A DNA stretch of 64,000 nucleotides from the NCBI RefSeq assembly GCF_988242995.1, contig NZ_OZ547043.1, one strand, 5' to 3'. A program made the position numbers and the translations under genes. Shown here in pieces: positions 29,982-44,426 of this stretch (position 1 is the stretch's first letter; each line of letters starts with the position of its first letter). A model generated the notes under the pieces. That model was not told where the DNA came from and did not search any database. It worked only from the letters and a program-made list of their open reading frames with translations.

Positions 29982-32222
29982 TCAGAAGTGAGTATTAATG
30001 CTCATATACCACGTACGTCCCGGCTCGTTATAGGTATACGCCCCGGCACCGGCGATATAGTTGGCTCCTGCCAGATCGCCCGTGGTCTGGGCATTACCCG
30101 CACGCCACAAACGTTTGTCGAACAGGTTGTCCACGCCGCCGGTCAGACTGACATTCTTCGTCACATCCCACGTCGCGCTCAGGCCTACAATGCTGTACGG
30201 GCTGATTTCTTTGGTTTCCGGTCCAACCGCTGGCTGACCTTTATAGTTGTACTTCTTCGGCTGCTGCTTGCCGTACCAGGTGAAGGTTGTTTGCATCGAC
30301 AAATCTTCCCGTGCCTGCCAGCTCAGCGTTGAGTTCAACGTATACTCCGGGATGATCGACAAACGGTCGCCCGTGGTTTTGTTTTCACTCTTCAGCATAT
30401 AAGTGATGTTATTGGTCCACATCACCGTTTCGCTAACCGGTACGTTTAACGATCCTTCCAGACCTTCAACCACCGCTTTCGGTACGTTATCCCACTGATA
30501 GAGATCGGTGCCGACTGCGTTTTGCCCTACAGCCACATAGCCCGCTTCAATCTTATTGCGATAATCGTTGCGGAACCAGGTGACGCCCGCCAGCCAGCCG
30601 TCGCGTTTGAACTCCAGGCCAATCTCCTTGTTGATACTGGTTTCCGCTTTCAGGTCATCATTACCTTGCAGATAGCAGCCGCCCGCGCTGGCATAGCAGC
30701 CCTGACCTTTACTGTAGAGAATGTAGTTTGGGTTAGTCTGGTACAGACTCGGCGCTTTATAAGCACGGGCAATGCCCATTTTCAGCGTGAAGTCATCGCC
30801 TAAACCTTGCGATATGTTTAGAGCCGGACTCCAGTTATTGCCAACAATGCTGTGATGATCGAAACGCAGCCCCGGCGTTACGATGGTGCTGTCAGTCAGC
30901 TCCATATTGTTTTCGGCAAACAGCGAGAAAATTTCTGCTTTTGAATACGGGCTACGGTCTGTCGCACTCACGCCATCAATAGCACCGCCGGTATTCGTCC
31001 CGGTGAGCGCCTGGGTGTTGGAACTTAAATCCTTCATCCGCTGCTGATTCCACTCCGTACCCAGCGTCAGCGTCTGGTTAACGAGGAAATCAATCGGCAG
31101 GTTAACTTCGCTGTGCAGCATCACGTCATCGAGATCGATATCGACGAAATCCTGTGTCGCTTTTTCGTTAAATTTCCCTTCGGTACCGCCCGCCAGACCT
31201 TCCGGAATACGCGAGTTACGGGTGTGTTCGTACTGCACCCAGTTGCTGGTGGTCACGCCGTTATCCCAGCCGCCGTTCCATGTCAGCGAGTAGTTCTGGC
31301 GATACAGACGGTTGGTTTCATCGCCATATTTCGAGCGGGTATAGGAGTCAGAGTTGGTGTTCTGGGTGTCGCCCGCATACAGGTTACCCTGGCGGCTGTA
31401 GCCCGCTTCCAGTTCGAGTGATTGCAGAGGCGCGAAGTCCCAGCGCACCACGCCATTAATATCTTTGTTAATTACCCCTTCGCGCCCGGCTGGTAACGTC
31501 GTGGCATACGTTCCGGCACGCGCGGACTGATGGCCCTGGTTGATATCCCACGCGTCAGCCTGGGTTTTGTCGAGGTTGCCATACAAGCGGAAGCTGAATT
31601 CGTCGCCCAGCGGACCGGTCAGGCTGAAGTTGGTGCGTTTAGTGGCACCTTCCTCTTTATGTTCTGGCGCATTGAAATAAGCGTCCCAGGAGCCGTGCCA
31701 CTCACCACTGCCTTTTTTGGTAATGATGTTAACCACGCCGCCCGCCGCGCCGTTGCCATAACGCGCAGCTGCCGGACCACGCAGAACTTCAATACGTTCA
31801 ATCATTTCAGGTGGCACCCAGGAAGTATCACCACGGGTATCGCGCTCGCCACGCCAGCCCTGACGCACCGAGTTACGGCTGCTTACCGGTTTGCCGTCAA
31901 TCAAAATCAGCGTGTTTTCCGGACCCATGCCGCGAATATCAATCTGGCGGTTATTACCACGCTGACCACTGGTGGAGTTGCCGGTCAGGTTAACGCCTGG
32001 CATGGTACGGATGATCTCCGACACATCGCGGGCAACCGGGTTTTTGCGGATTTCATCTGCGGTGATGGTCGAAACGCCAGGCGCCTGCAAGTTCTGCTCG
32101 GCGGCGGTAACGACAATGGTATCGTCATGTGAAACAGGAGTATCGGTCGGCTCTTGTGCCTGCGCTACCCCATAAATCCCCAGATTGACCAACAAGGCCA
32201 GGGAATGAATCTTCTTGTTCAT
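29982..32222 (-). CDS. fepA: Ferric enterobactin TonB-dependent outer membrane receptor FepA, 746 aa
   Basis: ORF track; start moved to MNKKIHSLALLVNLGIYGVAQA (signal peptide), codon 21 of the track ORF. Confidence 0.95.
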   Translation of the reverse strand: MNKKIHSLALLVNLGIYGVAQAQEPTDTPVSHDDTIVVTAAEQNLQAPGVSTITADEIRKNPVARDVSEIIRTMPGVNLTGNSTSGQRGNNRQIDIRGMGPENTLILIDGKPVSSRNSVRQGWRGERDTRGDTSWVPPEMIERIEVLRGPAAARYGNGAAGGVVNIITKKGSGEWHGSWDAYFNAPEHKEEGATKRTNFSLTGPLGDEFSFRLYGNLDKTQADAWDINQGHQSARAGTYATTLPAGREGVINKDINGVVRWDFAPLQSLELEAGYSRQGNLYAGDTQNTNSDSYTRSKYGDETNRLYRQNYSLTWNGGWDNGVTTSNWVQYEHTRNSRIPEGLAGGTEGKFNEKATQDFVDIDLDDVMLHSEVNLPIDFLVNQTLTLGTEWNQQRMKDLSSNTQALTGTNTGGAIDGVSATDRSPYSKAEIFSLFAENNMELTDSTIVTPGLRFDHHSIVGNNWSPALNISQGLGDDFTLKMGIARAYKAPSLYQTNPNYILYSKGQGCYASAGGCYLQGNDDLKAETSINKEIGLEFKRDGWLAGVTWFRNDYRNKIEAGYVAVGQNAVGTDLYQWDNVPKAVVEGLEGSLNVPVSETVMWTNNITYMLKSENKTTGDRLSIIPEYTLNSTLSWQAREDLSMQTTFTWYGKQQPKKYNYKGQPAVGPETKEISPYSIVGLSATWDVTKNVSLTGGVDNLFDKRLWRAGNAQTTGDLAGANYIAGAGAYTYNEPGRTWYMSINTHF

Positions 32223-32379
32223 TGTTTTATTCCTGCATTTTTGCCACGAATTGCAACTGTCGGGCATGGTCGTCATCAACACGACGCATCCCGCTACCGC
32301 GAAAACCTTTGATCCTGAAAGACACGCAGTGCAGTTGGTTAATTAATGTCCGCGCTTCCCACGGCGCGCCATTACGCTA

Positions 32380-32425
32380 TTGCAAATGCAAATAGTTATC
32401 AATAATATTATCAATATATTTCTGC
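32380..32425. promoter_or_regulatory. Fur-box region in the divergent fepA/fes promoter (AATAGTTATCAATAATATTATCAATA)
   Basis: AT-rich near-palindromic hexamer repeats resembling GATAATGATAATCATTATC. Confidence 0.5.
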
Positions 32426-32464
32426 AATCAATGAAAAATTGCACAGTAAACATGGGGTTATGGT

Positions 32465-33667
32465 GTGACGGCGTTAAAAGTAGGAAGTGAGAGCTGGTGG
32501 CAGTCGAAACATGGCCCGGAATGGCAGCGTCTGAATGACGAAATGTTTGAGGTCACTTTCTGGTGGCGTGATCCCCAAGGTTCTGAAGAATACTCGACGA
32601 TAAAGCGGGTATGGGTCTACATCACTGGTGTGACCGATCACCATCAGAACAGCCAGCCCCAGTCGATGCAGCGAATTGCAGGCACCAACGTCTGGCAGTG
32701 GACGACACAGCTCAATGCCTACTGGCGCGGCAGCTACTGCTTTATTCCCACCGAACGCGATGACATTTTTTCTGCACCATCCCCCGATCGCCTCGAATTA
32801 CGTGAAGGCTGGCGAAAACTATTACCCCAGGCGATAGCCGATCCGCTGAATCCACAAAGCTGGAAAGGCGGGCGAGGGCACGCTGTTTCTGCACTCGAAA
32901 TGCCGCAAGCGCCTCTGCAACCGGGTTGGGATTGTCCGCAAGCGCCAGAAACACCTGCCAAAGAAATTATCTGGAAAAGTGAACGGTTGAAGAATTCACG
33001 CCGTGTATGGATTTTTACCACCGGCGATGCAACAGCAGAAGAACGCCCGCTGGCAGTTTTGCTCGATGGCGAATTTTGGGCGCAAAGTATGCCCGTCTGG
33101 CCTGTGCTGACTTCGCTGACCCATCGTCAGCAACTTCCTCCCGCCGTGTATGTGTTGATCGACGCTATCGACACCACGCACCGTGCCCACGAACTGCCGT
33201 GTAATACGGATTTCTGGCTGGCAGTACAGCAAGAGTTATTACCCCTGGTGAAAGCTATTGCCCCTTTTAGCGATCGCGCCGATCGCACCGTGGTCGCCGG
33301 GCAGAGTTTTGGTGGGCTTTCTGCGCTGTATGCCGGACTGCACTGGCCTGAACGCTTTGGCTGTGTATTAAGCCAGTCAGGATCGTACTGGTGGCCGCAT
33401 CGGGGCGGGCACCAAGAGGGCGTGTTACTTGAACAGCTAAAAACTGGTGAAGTTAGCGCCGAAGGTCTGCGCATTGTGCTGGAAGCGGGTGTTCGCGAGC
33501 CGATGATCATGCGGGCCAATCAGGTGCTGTATGCGCAATTACACCCCATAAAAGAATCCATTTTCTGGCGTCAGGTTGACGGCGGACATGATGCGCTTTG
33601 TTGGCGCGGTGGCTTGATGCAGGGGCTAATCGACCTCTGGCAACCACTTTTCCATGACAGGAGTTGA
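32465..33667 (+). CDS. fes: Enterobactin esterase Fes (GTG start, 400 aa; alternative ATG start at 32543 gives 374 aa)
   Basis: ORF track MTALKVGSESWWQSKHGPEWQRLNDEMFEV... Confidence 0.9.
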   Translation: MTALKVGSESWWQSKHGPEWQRLNDEMFEVTFWWRDPQGSEEYSTIKRVWVYITGVTDHHQNSQPQSMQRIAGTNVWQWTTQLNAYWRGSYCFIPTERDDIFSAPSPDRLELREGWRKLLPQAIADPLNPQSWKGGRGHAVSALEMPQAPLQPGWDCPQAPETPAKEIIWKSERLKNSRRVWIFTTGDATAEERPLAVLLDGEFWAQSMPVWPVLTSLTHRQQLPPAVYVLIDAIDTTHRAHELPCNTDFWLAVQQELLPLVKAIAPFSDRADRTVVAGQSFGGLSALYAGLHWPERFGCVLSQSGSYWWPHRGGHQEGVLLEQLKTGEVSAEGLRIVLEAGVREPMIMRANQVLYAQLHPIKESIFWRQVDGGHDALCWRGGLMQGLIDLWQPLFHDRS

Positions 33668-39927: not shown

Positions 39928-40916
39928 TTTTTGCGAGACTCCTGAATTAACAAGACGATAAGGTAAATACCGCCAAGGCTGACGGTAACGACGCCAACCG
40001 GAAGTTGATACGGCATAAACAGTTGTTGGGCGCAGAGATCGGCCACCAGCAGTAACAGCGCTCCGCACAGCGCCGCCTGGGTTAGCCCCCAGCGAGCGGT
40101 GCCGCTAATGCGTCGGGCAATGTGCGGCGCGACTAAAGCAATAAAGGAAATCGGCCCGGCAAGCGCCGTTGCCGCAGCGGTAAGCACCACTGCAACCAGC
40201 ATCATTAACAGCCGCGAACGTTCGACGCTGACGCCCAGCGCACACGCGGTGTCATCGCCCATTTCCAGCAAGCGCATTCGCCGCACCAGCAAGGCGGCGG
40301 CAATGAGCATCAATATAATGATGGGTGCGGAAGGCGAGGTTTTTGCCCACGTCAGGCCGTTGAGCGATCCGGCATTCCACAAACCCGCTGTTAGCGCCGT
40401 TTCTAAAGACGCTTTCAGCAACAGCCAGGTATTAAAGGCCACCAGCATGGCGCGAACGCCGATACCAATAATAATCAACCGAAAGGTGTCGATGCCGTTA
40501 CGCCAGGCGAGCAGCCAGACCAGCAGCGAGGTGACAATGCCGCCCACCATTGCTGCCAGGGCAATAGCCGTCAGGTCCTGACCAAATAGCACCATCGCCA
40601 CCAGCACGCCGCTCCACGCCCCGGTGTTAAAGCCCATTACGTCAGGGCTGCCGAGCGGGTTACGCATCAGCGACTGAAAAATCGCGCCGCTGACGCCCAG
40701 TGACGCGCCAATCAACAGCGCCATCAGTACGCGTGGTAAACGCCATTCGGTGACTACCATCGTCATACTGCGCGGTGCATCGCCCATCAGCGCGGCGAAT
40801 ACCTGCGAGGTTTCCAGCGTGACGGCACCGCTGCGTAATCCCCAGATACCTGCAACCACACAGGCGGAAACCAGCAGCAAACAGGTGATAATTAATCGGC
40901 GAGAGACGTAAATCAT
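39924..40916 (-). CDS. fepG: Ferric enterobactin ABC transporter permease FepG, 330 aa
   Basis: ORF track; ATGA overlaps with fepD and fepC. Confidence 0.95.
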   Translation of the reverse strand: MIYVSRRLIITCLLLVSACVVAGIWGLRSGAVTLETSQVFAALMGDAPRSMTMVVTEWRLPRVLMALLIGASLGVSGAIFQSLMRNPLGSPDVMGFNTGAWSGVLVAMVLFGQDLTAIALAAMVGGIVTSLLVWLLAWRNGIDTFRLIIIGIGVRAMLVAFNTWLLLKASLETALTAGLWNAGSLNGLTWAKTSPSAPIIILMLIAAALLVRRMRLLEMGDDTACALGVSVERSRLLMMLVAVVLTAAATALAGPISFIALVAPHIARRISGTARWGLTQAALCGALLLLVADLCAQQLFMPYQLPVGVVTVSLGGIYLIVLLIQESRKK

Positions 40917-41917
40917 GCGCCACCTCGCGTTTTACGTCGCACGAGGAAGATCAGCACCGGTGCGCCAATAAAGGCACTGACTACAGAAACGCGCAGTTCG
41001 CCGGGCACAATCACCCGCCCGATGATATCGGCAAACAGCAGCAGGGCAGGGGTAGCAAGTAGCGTGACGGGCAGCGACCAGCGATGATCGGCACCCACCA
41101 GCCAACGCGCCATATGCGGCATCATCAGGCCAATAAAGGCAATCGGGCCAACTACCGCCGTCGCACTACCACAAAGCACGGTAATCGCCAGCAGACCAAT
41201 CAACTGTGTGCGCGCCACGCGACTGCCCAGCGCCGTCGCGGTGTCACTGCCGAGGCTTAAACTGTTCAGCGCGCGGCTCAGTAATAGCGCGGTTGCTCCG
41301 GCGGTAAGCACCGGGATCAGCACCACTTTTAAGGTATGTAGATTGCGAATATCCAGCGAACCGGCTTGCCAGAAACGCAACTGATCGTAGACGTCAGGAT
41401 TAAGCAGGGCGATGCCGCTGGTCAGCCCTTCCAGCACCGCCGCCAGCGCCACGCCCGCCAGGGTTAAACGCACCGGACTTAACTGCCCGCCGCCCTGGCT
41501 GCCGGTAAAGGCAACAATCAACGAGGCCACCAGCGCCCCGGCGAAGGCCATCGCCAGTTGTTCCTGTGCGGAAGAGTAACCAAACAGCGCCGCACCCAGC
41601 ACAATGGCAAAGCTGGCTCCGGCGTTCACGCCAAGCAAGCCGGGGTCGGCAAGTGGGTTTCGGGTGAGGGTTTGCATTAACGCCCCGGCAAGCCCAAGCG
41701 CGCCGCCTGCCAGTAAACCGGCAAGGGTGCGCGGCAGCCGCGCGTCGAGCACGATGGTGCAGTCGGCGCTCTGGCAGGTGCCGGAGAGGGCCTCCAGCAC
41801 TACGGAAGCGGGGAGTGATTTTGCCCCAATGAGCAGGCTTAATGCCGTCGCGATAATCAGTAATAACAGCAATCCGGGCACGGCAATGGCGCGTGTCACG
41901 GCAACAGAACCAGACAT
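40913..41917 (-). CDS. fepD: Ferric enterobactin ABC transporter permease FepD, 334 aa
   Basis: ORF track; start moved to MSGSVAVTRAIAVPGLLLLL. Confidence 0.95.
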   Translation of the reverse strand: MSGSVAVTRAIAVPGLLLLLIIATALSLLIGAKSLPASVVLEALSGTCQSADCTIVLDARLPRTLAGLLAGGALGLAGALMQTLTRNPLADPGLLGVNAGASFAIVLGAALFGYSSAQEQLAMAFAGALVASLIVAFTGSQGGGQLSPVRLTLAGVALAAVLEGLTSGIALLNPDVYDQLRFWQAGSLDIRNLHTLKVVLIPVLTAGATALLLSRALNSLSLGSDTATALGSRVARTQLIGLLAITVLCGSATAVVGPIAFIGLMMPHMARWLVGADHRWSLPVTLLATPALLLFADIIGRVIVPGELRVSVVSAFIGAPVLIFLVRRKTRGGA

Positions 41918-41932
41918 ACGAACTTCCATGAT

Positions 41933-41957
41933 AATGAAATTAATTATCGTTATCGAT
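41933..41957. promoter_or_regulatory. Fur box in the divergent fepD/entS promoter (GATAATGAAATTAATTATCGTTATC)
   Basis: Close match to the Fur consensus, read from sequence. Confidence 0.6.
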
Positions 41958-42027
41958 CTTATTTGGATATGTTAGCATGTGCAGCCTAAGAATAGGTATT
42001 TAAAATATTTGATGGCAAGGCATTGTA

Positions 42028-43281: not shown

Positions 43282-44238
43282 TTAAAACAGCGCCTTAAGT
43301 CGTTCCAGCACTTGCATGGCGCTGTAGTAATCCAGTCGGAACGTCTCGGTTCCCAGCGCATAAACCTGCTTGTTTTGTACTGCGGGCAGGTGCGCGAGCA
43401 GTGGATTGGCATAAATAGCATCGGCATCTTTCTGATCACCGGCGAACAGGAATAGTGACTCGCCATTTAACCCTGCAGCCAGATTTTCACCACCAAGCTG
43501 AATGATGTCATGGCGTTTGCCCTGGCTTTGGCTGGCGTTTAACCCTGCGGGCAATTTCGCCAACGTAAAGCCGAGTTGTTCCAGCATCTGCCCTTGTGCT
43601 GATTCCGGCGTCCAGAGATTGGCACTGTGTGCAGCGGCGGTATAGACAATGGCAGTGACCGGCTGCGGCGGTAATTTGATTTGCTCTTTCGCCGCTGCCA
43701 GTTGCTTATCAAACTGTGCAATCCGCTCTGCCGCTTGTTTCTCATGCCCGGTAATTTCGCCAAGTTGCGTTAACAGCGACTGCCAGCTTTTGTCGTCGTA
43801 ATTGATGATTAATGTCGGGGCGATGGTGGAAAGCTGATCATACAGCGCCAGCGCCGAATCCCCGCCGGTTGCGCTAATTAAAATCAAATCCGGCATTTGC
43901 GCGGCAACGGCTTCGGCGCTCGGTTCGCCGATATAGAGCCGTTGCAGTTTGCGTTCTTTCGCCACCTTGCTCCACTGGCGTAAAAAGCCCTGGTCATCCG
44001 CGACGCGGTTATTCGGCGTGGTCGCGCCGCTGGCAATCACCGGAGCATCAATCGCCAGCAGTGAGCCAGTCAGGGTGACGCTGGTGGAAACAATACGCTG
44101 CGGCTGGCTTTCCAGGGTATGAGTGCCCCGGCTGTCAGTAATCTGACGCGGCCAGTCGGCGGCCTGAACTGCGACTATTCCTGAAAGCAAAAGTCCTGTT
44201 AATAGAAGGGCGTTGCGGTAGAGCGAGGCGAGTCTCAC
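43282..44238 (-). CDS. fepB: Ferric enterobactin periplasmic binding protein FepB, 318 aa (GTG start)
   Basis: ORF track [26 protein letters not shown]... Confidence 0.95.
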
Positions 44239-44375
44239 AAATCAGCTTCCTGTTATTAATGAAGTTAATGCTTCTCATTTTCATTGTAACCACAACCAGA
44301 TGCAACCCCGAGTTGCAGATTGCGTTACCTCAAGAGTTGACATAGTGCGCGTTTGCTTTTAGGTTAGCGACCGAA

Positions 44376-44398
44376 AATATAAATGATAATCATTATTA
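44376..44398. promoter_or_regulatory. Fur box in the divergent fepB/entC promoter (ATAAATGATAATCATTATTAAAG)
   Basis: GATAATCATTAT core matches the Fur consensus almost exactly. Confidence 0.7.
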
Positions 44399-44426
44399 AA
44401 GCCTTTATCATTTTGTGGAGGATGAT

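What the first reader, a model, noticed from the sequence alone, without database searches (positions are those of the whole stretch)
32283..32543. fepA/fes divergent control region and ambiguous fes start
The fepA-fes spacer carries overlapping Fur-box-like hexamer repeats. fes can begin at GTG (32465, 400 aa) or at an internal ATG (about 32543, 374 aa); both have been annotated historically. The choice changes the 5' UTR length and whether the Fur sites sit in the leader.
Basis: partly seen in the sequence, partly recalled or inferred. Interest (0 to 1): 0.2.

Follow-up and report, generated by a model that had tools for sequence, protein, structure and literature searches.

The report
Known fepA–fes iron-regulated control region
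This is the textbook E. coli fepA–fes divergent promoter, shut off by the iron sensor Fur, and comparison with other bacteria shows that fes starts at the upstream GTG (400 aa), so the finding is real but ordinary.

Summary
The window is E. coli. Bases 32119-32607 are identical to K-12. The true fepA–fes spacer is 32223-32464: fepA starts at ATG 32222, not at the end of the extended ORF at 32282.

A phased array of Fur-box-like hexamers lies at 32382-32412. It sits inside the published Fur footprint, which maps to 32373-32420. This is the most conserved stretch of the spacer across genera (93-97% identity). No dinucleotide shuffle reached its score (0 of 1000).

The array covers the overlapping fepA and fes core promoters. 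It is not in the fes leader, whichever start codon is used.

Both fes starts exist in public annotation: 400 aa in current RefSeq and UniProt, 374 aa in NC_000913.2 and some GenBank records. The ambiguity is largely resolved in favour of GTG 32465:
- Residues inside the 26-aa extension (G7, W11, W12, P18) are conserved from Escherichia to Pseudomonas, Iodobacter and Aeromonas.
- Met27 is not conserved, even within Escherichia.
- GTG 32465 is the only start codon upstream of that conserved motif.
- A conserved Shine-Dalgarno-like sequence lies 7 nt upstream of the GTG.
- The reading frame breaks with a 1-nt indel immediately 5' of the GTG.

No direct N-terminal protein data could be retrieved. 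The region is already known and of low interest.

The parts
29982..32222 (-). fepA coding sequence (ferric enterobactin outer-membrane receptor). The start is ATG 32222 (MNKKIHSLALLVNLGIYGVAQA...). The in-frame extension to GTG 32282 is not coding.
   Evidence: ORF list. RefSeq K-12 annotation at L001 883-3123 maps to 32222. The stretch 32223-32282 carries non-triplet indels between genera.
32223..32395 (-). fepA 5' leader, about 173 nt. The transcription start site near 32395 is inferred, 7 nt downstream of the -10 hexamer.
   Evidence: The published fepA promoter TTGCAG-14-TATTAT matches the window exactly at 32427..32402 on the - strand. Folding is not exceptional, z = -0.35. No Rfam match.
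32351..32368 (.). GC-rich palindrome CGCGC-N8-GCGCG within the fepA leader. It could be an RNA hairpin or a DNA site. Function unknown.
   Evidence: The arms are kept in Escherichia, Citrobacter, Leclercia, Enterobacter and Erwinia sp. The loop differs in E. albertii and Erwinia sp. The right arm is lost in Kluyvera. The pattern alone is not rare by chance: 32 of 100 shuffles have at least one.
32373..32420 (.). Fur operator. This is the DNase I footprint of Hunt 1994 as tabulated by Chen 2007 (NC_000913 611868-611915), mapped onto the window.
   Evidence: One search gives the coordinates. The offset is fixed by fepA -172 / fes -149. The window is identical to K-12 over 32119-32607. It is the most conserved block of the spacer, 0.93-0.97 identity over 32375-32414 in 12 taxa.
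32382..32412 (.). Phased Fur-box hexamer array GCAAAT GCAAAT a GTTATC AATAAT ATTATC. It forms overlapping 19-bp boxes at 6-bp steps.
   Evidence: mismatches 6, 7, 7, 7, and 0 of 1000 shuffles reach the score. Approximate dyad 32387-32407 / 32406-32426, 71% complementary.
32402..32407 (-). fepA -10 hexamer TATTAT.
   Evidence: Promoter scan. Published promoter.
32422..32431 (-). fepA -35 candidates: TTGCAG at 32427..32422 (published, 14-nt spacer) and TTGATT at 32431..32426 (18-nt spacer).
32380..32385 (+). Candidate fes -35 hexamer TTGCAA (inferred).
   Evidence: It lies 17 bp upstream of TAATAT 32403-32408, read directly. It is invariant in the enterobacterial alignment apart from Mangrovibacter, which has TTGAAA. 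It was not called by the consensus scan, scoring 8 of 12.
32403..32408 (+). Candidate fes -10 hexamer TAATAT (inferred). It overlaps the fepA -10 on the opposite strand and predicts a fes transcription start near 32414-32415.
   Evidence: This geometry agrees with the statement that the two transcription start sites are 19 bp apart (citing Pettis 1988). Sequence.
32454..32458 (+). Shine-Dalgarno-like GGGGU, 7 nt upstream of the fes GTG.
   Evidence: Duplex with the 16S 3' end is -5.4 kcal/mol, against -2.4 for the ATG 32543 context. The motif CATGRGGTTAT is conserved across genera.
32465..33667 (+). fes coding sequence (enterochelin esterase, 400 aa), initiating at GTG 32465.
32543..32545 (+). 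ATG for Met27. This is an internal codon and the former (374-aa) annotated start.
   Evidence: Not conserved. Weak Shine-Dalgarno context. The 374-aa form loses 29 positions of the NCBIfam profile and 21 bits of score.

Best explanation
The segment is the compact bidirectional control region of the E. coli enterobactin genes fepA(-entD) and fes(-ybdZ-entF).

Two sigma-70 promoters lie back to back. Their -10 hexamers overlap on opposite strands around 32402-32408, and their start sites are about 19 bp apart, near 32395 for fepA and near 32414 for fes.

An array of overlapping Fur hexamers (32382-32412, within the footprint 32373-32420) covers both -10 elements, the fes -35 and both start sites. 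When iron is plentiful, Fe2+-Fur dimers occupy the array and exclude RNA polymerase from both promoters at once. When iron is scarce, both operons are derepressed together.

fes mRNA has a leader of about 50 nt. Translation starts at GTG 32465, served by a conserved GGGG(U) Shine-Dalgarno sequence 7 nt upstream, and gives the 400-aa esterase. ATG 32543 is simply Met27.

Shown here: the sequence anatomy, conservation, coding signal, and statistics of the Fur array. Taken from the literature: the Fur footprint and Fur-dependent fepA expression. Inferred: the exact fes -35/-10 and transcription start, and exclusive use of the GTG in vivo.
For: **Identity of the region**
- E. coli fepA|fes, with 32119-32607 identical to K-12.

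**Fur operator**
- The Chen 2007 table of footprinted sites gives fepA-fes 611868-611915, with 4 overlapping sites and a strongest site of 18.7 bits at -172/-149. This maps to 32373-32420.
- The phased hexamer cluster is unmatched in 1000 shuffles of the spacer. It is third best in the window, behind two spacers of the same gene cluster.
- Cross-genus identity peaks at 0.93-0.97 exactly over 32375-32414.
- The published fepA promoter TTGCAG-14-TATTAT lies inside it. The fepA transcription start was not detectable in wild type but was seen in a fur knockout and in vitro.
- The fepA and fes start sites are 19 bp apart.
- The operator has dyad symmetry centred on the overlapping -10 hexamers.

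**Start codon**
- Homology to Fes relatives begins at residues 1-7 in all 36 full-length loci, including Pseudomonas, Iodobacter and Aeromonas.
- The GS[ED]xWW motif lies in the extension. W11, W12 and P18 are invariant.
- Met27 is absent in most relatives.
- Only 5 codons are open upstream of the GTG, and none is a start codon.
- A 1-nt indel lies immediately 5' of the GTG, but only triplet indels occur downstream.
- Shine-Dalgarno pairing is -5.4 against -2.4 kcal/mol.
- The NCBIfam equivalog profile is matched from position 14 by the 400-aa form but only from position 43 by the 374-aa form, a difference of 21 bits.
- In the AlphaFold2 model, residues 1-30 have pLDDT 86-94. A helix at 9-13 and a strand at 19-22 sit beside strand 27-35.
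- Crystal chains of the 400-aa constructs have 391 of 403 and 397 of 407 residues ordered, so at least 14 of the 26 N-terminal residues are ordered.
- Current RefSeq annotates the GTG.
Against: - No direct N-terminal sequencing, N-terminomics or initiation-profiling datum for Fes was retrieved. It is absent from the TetRP tables.
- The primary papers (Pettis 1988, Hunt 1994, Escolar 1998) are not held. The fes transcription start and hexamers are therefore inferred from secondary statements and geometry.
- The PDB constructs and the AlphaFold2 alignment follow the annotation or the in-frame translation. They show that the extension folds, not that it is made in vivo.
- GTG is a weaker initiator than ATG, and the Shine-Dalgarno sequence is only moderate.
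- The best single Fur box matches only 13 of 19 positions.
- Pfam Enterochelin_N starts at residue 29.
- Codon-position periodicity within codons 1-26 is weak (0.28/0.22/0.35).
Confidence: 0.9

Rival explanations
1. Both starts are used. GTG 32465 gives the 400-aa enzyme, and ATG 32543 gives a minor 374-aa isoform in E. coli strains that carry Met27.
For: - ATG is an intrinsically strong initiator, and Met27 is present in E. coli and some other Escherichia.
- Dual initiation sites are reported for many E. coli genes.
- Nothing retrieved here excludes low-level internal initiation.
Against: - There is no Shine-Dalgarno sequence worth the name before ATG 32543: -2.4 kcal/mol with interrupted pairing.
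- Met27 is not conserved, even within the genus.
- The short form would lack the invariant W11, W12 and P18, together with helix 9-13 and strand 19-22 of the N-terminal domain.
Confidence: 0.07
2. The older annotation is right. Fes starts at ATG 32543 (374 aa), and 32465-32542 is untranslated leader.
For: - NC_000913.2 and several GenBank records annotate 374 aa.
- The Pfam N-terminal domain model begins at residue 29.
- From my own recollection, unverified: the original estimate for Fes was about 43 kDa, which is closer to the 374-aa form.
Against: - The 'leader' would then hold an in-frame, indel-free, protein-level conserved segment shared with Pseudomonas, Iodobacter and Aeromonas.
- Most relatives have no Met at position 27.
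- The family profile gains 21 bits from the extension.
Confidence: 0.02
3. The AT-rich hexamer repeats are just promoter-region AT-richness. Fur control is exerted elsewhere, or as a roadblock within a transcribed leader.
For: - The best 19-mer matches only 13 of 19 positions.
- AT-rich promoter DNA resembles Fur boxes.
- The footprint extends about 22 nt into the fepA leader.
Against: - A DNase I footprint on the identical K-12 sequence coincides with the array.
- 1 of 1000 shuffles reaches the score even when only the 71% AT core is shuffled.
- The block is nearly invariant across genera while the flanking AT-rich spacer varies.
- fepA transcription is seen only without Fur.
Confidence: 0.02

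Closest known systems
E. coli K-12 fepA-fes bidirectional Fur-regulated promoter (Pettis 1988; Hunt 1994; Escolar 1998; information-theory analysis by Chen 2007, PMC2189734)
   Same: This is the same locus. The sequence is identical over 32119-32607. The single Fur footprint, overlapping divergent promoters and gene order entD-fepA | fes-ybdZ-entF all match.
   Different: Nothing within the control region. The window strain differs from K-12 only by scattered substitutions outside it: 5 in the 661 bp compared.
fepD-entS and fepB-entC divergent Fur-controlled spacers of the same enterobactin cluster
   Same: Divergent iron-transport and biosynthesis operons share a short spacer with clustered, 6-bp-phased Fur boxes. 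They are present in this window near 41924-41960, 44252-44290 and 44373-44410.
   Different: Those sites match the consensus better, with 3-4 mismatches. Chen 2007 reports two separately protected regions for fepB-entC, whereas fepA-fes has one footprint serving both directions.
Enterochelin esterase Fes of Shigella flexneri (PDB 2B20, 3C87, 3C8D, 3C8H) and Salmonella Typhimurium (PDB 3MGA)
   Same: The alignment runs full-length from residue 1 for Shigella (E = 8e-277) and from residue 3 for Salmonella. The architecture is the same: Enterochelin_N plus an alpha/beta-hydrolase esterase domain.
   Different: The Salmonella protein has Asn where E. coli has Met27, so it has no internal ATG at that position. 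Its construct begins one residue further upstream.

Membership tests
Fur operator (Fur-box array at a Fur-repressed sigma-70 promoter) | Similarity to the 19-bp Fur consensus GATAATGATAATCATTATC, or to arrays of GATAAT-like hexamers in 6-bp register | tested here: met
   The best 19-mer matches 13 of 19 positions at 32382. Four phased sites have 6, 7, 7 and 7 mismatches. The cluster ranks third in the 64-kb window, and 0 of 1000 spacer shuffles reach it.
Fur operator (Fur-box array at a Fur-repressed sigma-70 promoter) | Overlap with core promoter elements, so that bound Fur occludes RNA polymerase | tested here: met
   The array covers the fepA -10 (32402-32407). It also covers the inferred fes -35 and -10 (32380-32385 and 32403-32408). 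The fes elements are inferred, not read from primary data.
Fur operator (Fur-box array at a Fur-repressed sigma-70 promoter) | Physical binding by Fe2+/Mn2+-Fur (footprint) | not testable with these tools
   Literature: the footprint 611868-611915 in K-12 (Chen 2007 citing Hunt 1994) lies on sequence identical to the window.
Fur operator (Fur-box array at a Fur-repressed sigma-70 promoter) | Fur- and iron-dependent expression of the flanking genes | not testable with these tools
   Literature: the fepA transcription start was not detectable in wild type, but was seen in a fur knockout and in vitro.
Fur operator (Fur-box array at a Fur-repressed sigma-70 promoter) | Conservation of the site in orthologous control regions | tested here: met
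   Identity is 0.93-0.97 over 32375-32414 in 12 taxa, against 0.34-0.7 in the flanking spacer.
Enterochelin esterase Fes (NCBIfam NF007758 equivalog; Pfam PF11806 + PF00756) | Score above the curated cut-offs, with both domains present | tested here: met
   NF007758 scores 702 bits against a cut-off of 222. PF11806 scores 141.9 and PF00756 scores 76. Foldseek identity to solved Shigella Fes chains is 93-96%.
Enterochelin esterase Fes (NCBIfam NF007758 equivalog; Pfam PF11806 + PF00756) | Serine-hydrolase nucleophile motif and catalytic His conserved | tested here: met
   G279, Q280, S281, G283, G284 and H375, D376 are invariant in 37 sequences. Assigning catalytic roles to these residues rests on general knowledge of alpha/beta-hydrolases.
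Enterochelin esterase Fes (NCBIfam NF007758 equivalog; Pfam PF11806 + PF00756) | The N-terminal segment (E. coli residues 1-26) belongs to the family | tested here: met
   The profile is matched from position 14 by the 400-aa form and from position 43 by the 374-aa form. W11, W12 and P18 are invariant. pLDDT is 86-94.
Gene with a genuine alternative internal start (dual isoforms) | Internal start codon conserved among orthologues | tested here: not met
   Met27 is replaced by N, T, Y, C and other residues in most loci, including two Escherichia species.
Gene with a genuine alternative internal start (dual isoforms) | Ribosome-binding signal before the internal start | tested here: not met
   -2.4 kcal/mol with interrupted pairing, against -5.4 for the GTG.
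Gene with a genuine alternative internal start (dual isoforms) | Both protein N-termini, or both initiation peaks, observed experimentally | not tested
   fes is absent from the TetRP supplementary tables. No other dataset was reachable.

The most novel reading that the evidence does not exclude
In Escherichia, a lineage-specific 1-nt deletion just 5' of the fes start threw out of frame the ATG that lies in frame two codons upstream in Citrobacter. The result is ATG32460-GTG-TGA, and a GTG32463-TGA 'start-stop', both overlapping the real GTG 32465 and sharing its Shine-Dalgarno sequence. Ribosomes captured on these abortive starts could throttle or tune Fes translation. Met27 could add a minor short isoform. 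This would be an Escherichia-specific translational layer on top of Fur control.
Probability: 0.04. Interest if true: 0.3.

Novelty: already known. Interest (0 to 1): 0.07.

Why it matters
It matters little beyond annotation hygiene. The region is a classic model of coordinated Fur repression of divergent promoters.

The one practical point is that the 374-aa Fes still present in some GenBank records is an N-terminal truncation. It removes conserved, structured residues. The Pfam N-terminal domain boundary at residue 29 also excludes those residues. Constructs, domain boundaries and UTR or sRNA analyses should use GTG 32465.

Tried and rejected
- **Primary papers.** Pettis 1988, Hunt 1994 (PMC205592), Escolar 1998 (PMC107206) and the dRNA-seq paper I recalled as PMC4288677 (Thomason 2015; id given from memory) are not held. 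Exact transcription start coordinates could not be read directly.
- **Literature searches.** Searches for a statement on the Fes start codon or N-terminus found nothing useful.
- **TetRP start-site tables.** Nakahigashi 2016 does not list fes or fepA. The likely reasons are Fur repression in the medium used and a 60-nt search range.
- **ROSE supplement.** It gives no coordinates.
- **Rfam.** A permissive E-value scan of 32000-32800 gave no RNA family.
- **RNA folding.** The fepA leader (z = -0.35) and the fes leader with early coding sequence (z = +0.66) show no unusual stability. A riboswitch- or attenuator-like reading was dropped.
- **Strict consensus search.** A search allowing up to 3 mismatches misses the fepA-fes site altogether. 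A phased-array statistic was needed.
- **GC palindrome as terminator.** No terminator-like site was found, and no U-run follows the palindrome. This reading was rejected.
- **Codon-position variability.** The signal within codons 1-26 is only weakly periodic. I rely on residue conservation and indel phase instead.

Full report
**What the window is**

The 661 bases around the finding match 5414 of 5426 complete E. coli genomes at 90-99.5% identity. Every hit is annotated fepA | fes. Against K-12 MG1655 there are only five substitutions, all outside 32119-32607, and no indels. Published K-12 data therefore transfer base for base.

RefSeq annotates fepA on the minus strand, ending at window 32222 (ATG, MNKKIHSL...). 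It annotates fes on the plus strand from window 32465, 1203 nt or 400 aa, followed by ybdZ and entF.

The finding's left edge, 32283, is the end of the maximal fepA ORF (GTG 32282), not the gene start. The stretch 32223-32282 shows non-triplet indels between genera. The real spacer is 32223-32464.

**The observation**

GTG 32465 opens a 400-codon frame, and ATG 32543 is codon 27 of that frame.

Both lengths have been annotated. An exact-sequence look-up finds the K-12 400-aa protein (FES_ECOLI, RefSeq, at least 1000 contigs). It also finds the 374-aa protein (ACB01707.1, ACR63037.1, AFG39449.1 and others, 36 contigs). Chen et al. 2007 place their strongest Fur site 172 bp from fepA and 149 bp from fes in NC_000913. 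That is only consistent with the ATG 32543 start.

The Fur-like hexamers are present: GCAAAT GCAAAT a GTTATC AATAAT ATTATC from 32382 to 32412.
- A strict consensus search allowing up to 3 mismatches misses them.
- The best 19-mer matches 13 of 19 positions. Four overlapping boxes at 6-bp steps have 6, 7, 7 and 7 mismatches.
- As a phased cluster this ranks third in the 64-kb window. The two better ones lie in the fepD-entS and fepB-entC spacers of the same gene cluster.
- 0 of 1000 dinucleotide-preserving shuffles of the spacer reach the score, and 1 of 1000 shuffles of the 71% AT core alone.

**What the hexamers are**

Chen 2007 lists the DNase I footprint of Hunt et al. 1994 as 611868-611915, with four overlapping predicted sites spanning 37 bp. 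The offset is fixed by the two gene starts, so this maps to 32373-32420.

I fetched 37 loci encoding Fes relatives and aligned the enterobacterial ones. The block ACGCTATTGCAAATGCAAATAGTTATCAATAATATTATCAATAT is almost invariant across Escherichia, Citrobacter, Leclercia, Kluyvera, Enterobacter and an Erwinia sp.. Binned identity over 12 taxa is 0.93-0.97 for 32375-32414, against 0.34-0.7 for most of the rest of the spacer.

The block has approximate dyad symmetry, with arms 32387-32407 and 32406-32426 at 71% complementarity.

**Promoter geometry**

The published fepA promoter, TTGCAG-14-TATTAT, matches the minus strand exactly at 32427..32422 and 32407..32402. The consensus scan picks the same -10 hexamer with TTGATT (32431..32426) as the -35. 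This puts the fepA transcription start near 32395 and gives a leader of about 173 nt.

A secondary source citing Pettis 1988 states that the fepA and fes transcription starts are 19 bp apart. On the plus strand, TTGCAA (32380-32385), a 17-bp spacer and TAATAT (32403-32408) predict a start near 32414-32415, which fits. This fes assignment is my inference, because the primary papers were not available.

Either way, the footprint covers both -10 hexamers, the fes -35 and both start sites. Fur acts here by promoter occlusion of both transcription units at once. As I recall it (not re-read here), Hunt 1994 and Escolar 1998 reached the same conclusion. Consistent with this, the fepA transcription start was not detectable in wild type but was seen in a fur knockout and in vitro.

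That does not hold. The footprint ends 45 nt upstream of the GTG and lies at or upstream of the fes start site. Only the nominal UTR length changes, from about 50 nt to about 128 nt.

**The fes start**

Comparative evidence settles this as far as sequence can.
- tblastn homology to the E. coli protein begins at residues 1-7 in all 36 full-length loci. These include Pseudomonas oryzihabitans-group species, Rahnella, Iodobacter and Aeromonas at 44-53% identity.
- In-frame translation shows the motif GS[ED]xWW (E. coli residues 7-12) in essentially all of them. In the 37-sequence alignment W11, W12 and P18 are invariant, and G7 is present in at least 90%.
- Met27 is not conserved. It is N in Escherichia sp. 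MOD1-EC7003, T in E. albertii, N or D in Citrobacter, and other residues elsewhere. Salmonella Fes (PDB 3MGA) has N at that position.
- In E. coli only five codons are open upstream of GTG 32465 (TWGYG), and none is a start codon. The GTG is therefore the only possible initiator upstream of the conserved motif.
- Escherichia differs from Citrobacter and others by a 1-nt gap immediately 5' of the GTG. Downstream, only a 3-nt indel occurs. This marks the coding boundary.
- A conserved CATGRGGTTAT places GGGG(U) 7 nt before the GTG. Its pairing with the 16S 3' end is -5.4 kcal/mol, against -2.4 with interrupted pairing before ATG 32543.
- The NCBIfam equivalog NF007758 is matched from profile position 14 by the 400-aa form (702 bits). 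The 374-aa form matches only from position 43 (681 bits).
- An AlphaFold2 model built on the 37-sequence alignment gives pLDDT 86-94 for residues 1-30. It has a short helix at 9-13 and a strand at 19-22 next to strand 27-35.
- Crystal chains of the full-length constructs have 391 of 403 residues ordered (2B20) and 397 of 407 (3MGA). At least 14 of the 26 N-terminal residues must therefore be ordered.

Several caveats apply. The constructs and alignments follow the annotation, so they show that the extension folds, not that it is made in vivo. Codon-position periodicity in codons 1-26 is weak. Pfam's Enterochelin_N model starts at residue 29. I found no direct N-terminal or initiation-profiling evidence, and fes is absent from the TetRP tables.

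A minor contribution from ATG 32543 in strains that have it cannot be excluded. I put that at about 7%.

**Other checks**

No Rfam family matches 32000-32800. Neither leader folds better than shuffled controls. No terminator-like site is present.

**Verdict**

The 'ambiguous start' is a legacy annotation difference, now resolved in current RefSeq and UniProt in the direction the comparative data support. It is already known and of low interest.

Two small items are worth a note. One is a GC palindrome in the fepA leader that is conserved across genera. The other is the Escherichia-specific 1-nt deletion, which leaves abortive ATG-GTG-TGA and GTG-TGA mini-frames overlapping the fes start codon.

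Noticed in passing
window 32351-32368: GC-rich palindrome CGCGC-TTCCCACG-GCGCG in the fepA leader, roughly +27 to +44 of the fepA mRNA and -46 to -63 from the fes transcription start. The arms are invariant in Escherichia, Citrobacter, Leclercia and Enterobacter. The loop differs but the arms are kept in E. albertii and an Erwinia sp. The right arm is lost in Kluyvera. The pattern is not statistically rare on its own. There is no covariation, so an RNA hairpin and a DNA site cannot be told apart. Hunt 1994 reported mutations outside the promoters that lowered both fepA and fes expression (recalled, not re-read). This element might be that region.
   Followed up: partly
window 32452-32468: Escherichia has a 1-nt deletion just 5' of the fes GTG relative to Citrobacter, Leclercia and Enterobacter. 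Citrobacter has an in-frame ATG two codons upstream (M-x-V-T). In E. coli that ATG (32460) is out of frame. It gives ATG-GTG-TGA, and GTG32463-TGA forms a start-stop. Both overlap the GTG 32465 start and share its Shine-Dalgarno sequence. A 12-codon ORF from ATG 32452 also overlaps the start but has no Shine-Dalgarno sequence.
   Followed up: partly
window 41924-41960, 44252-44290 and 44373-44410: Better Fur-box clusters than the fepA-fes one, with 3-4 mismatches to the 19-bp consensus. They lie in spacers between divergent ORFs at 40913-41929(-)/42028-43278(+) and 43282-44238(-)/44415-45602(+). By position in the ent cluster these are fepD-entS and fepB-entC. The gene names were assigned from gene order and ORF size, not verified by search.
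   Followed up: partly
window 32387-32426: The Fur operator is an imperfect 21-nt-arm palindrome (71%) centred at 32406/32407. That is exactly where the fepA and inferred fes -10 hexamers overlap on opposite strands. The whole bidirectional unit is roughly two-fold symmetric.
   Followed up: partly
Fes residues 1-28 (window 32465-32548): Pfam PF11806 (Enterochelin_N) begins at Fes residue 29. It therefore omits the conserved W11, W12 and P18 segment, which is confidently modelled as helix 9-13 and strand 19-22. The domain boundary may be a legacy of the old 374-aa annotation.
   Followed up: no
loci L023-L036: Clear Fes homologues at 44-53% identity, with the N-terminal motif included, occur outside Enterobacterales. 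They are found in the Pseudomonas oryzihabitans, rhizoryzae, japonica and massiliensis group, in Iodobacter and in an Aeromonas sp.. Their genomic context was not examined.
   Followed up: no
locus L038: A 274-bp, very low-coverage contig labelled Oceanobacillus sp. HTM 045 encodes a fragment 72% identical to Fes residues 193-277. It is probably enterobacterial contamination of that assembly.
   Followed up: no
window 32223-32282: The fepA reading frame stays open 20 codons upstream of the true ATG, up to GTG 32282, with two further in-frame ATGs. The stretch is not conserved as coding, because it carries non-triplet indels between genera.
   Followed up: yes
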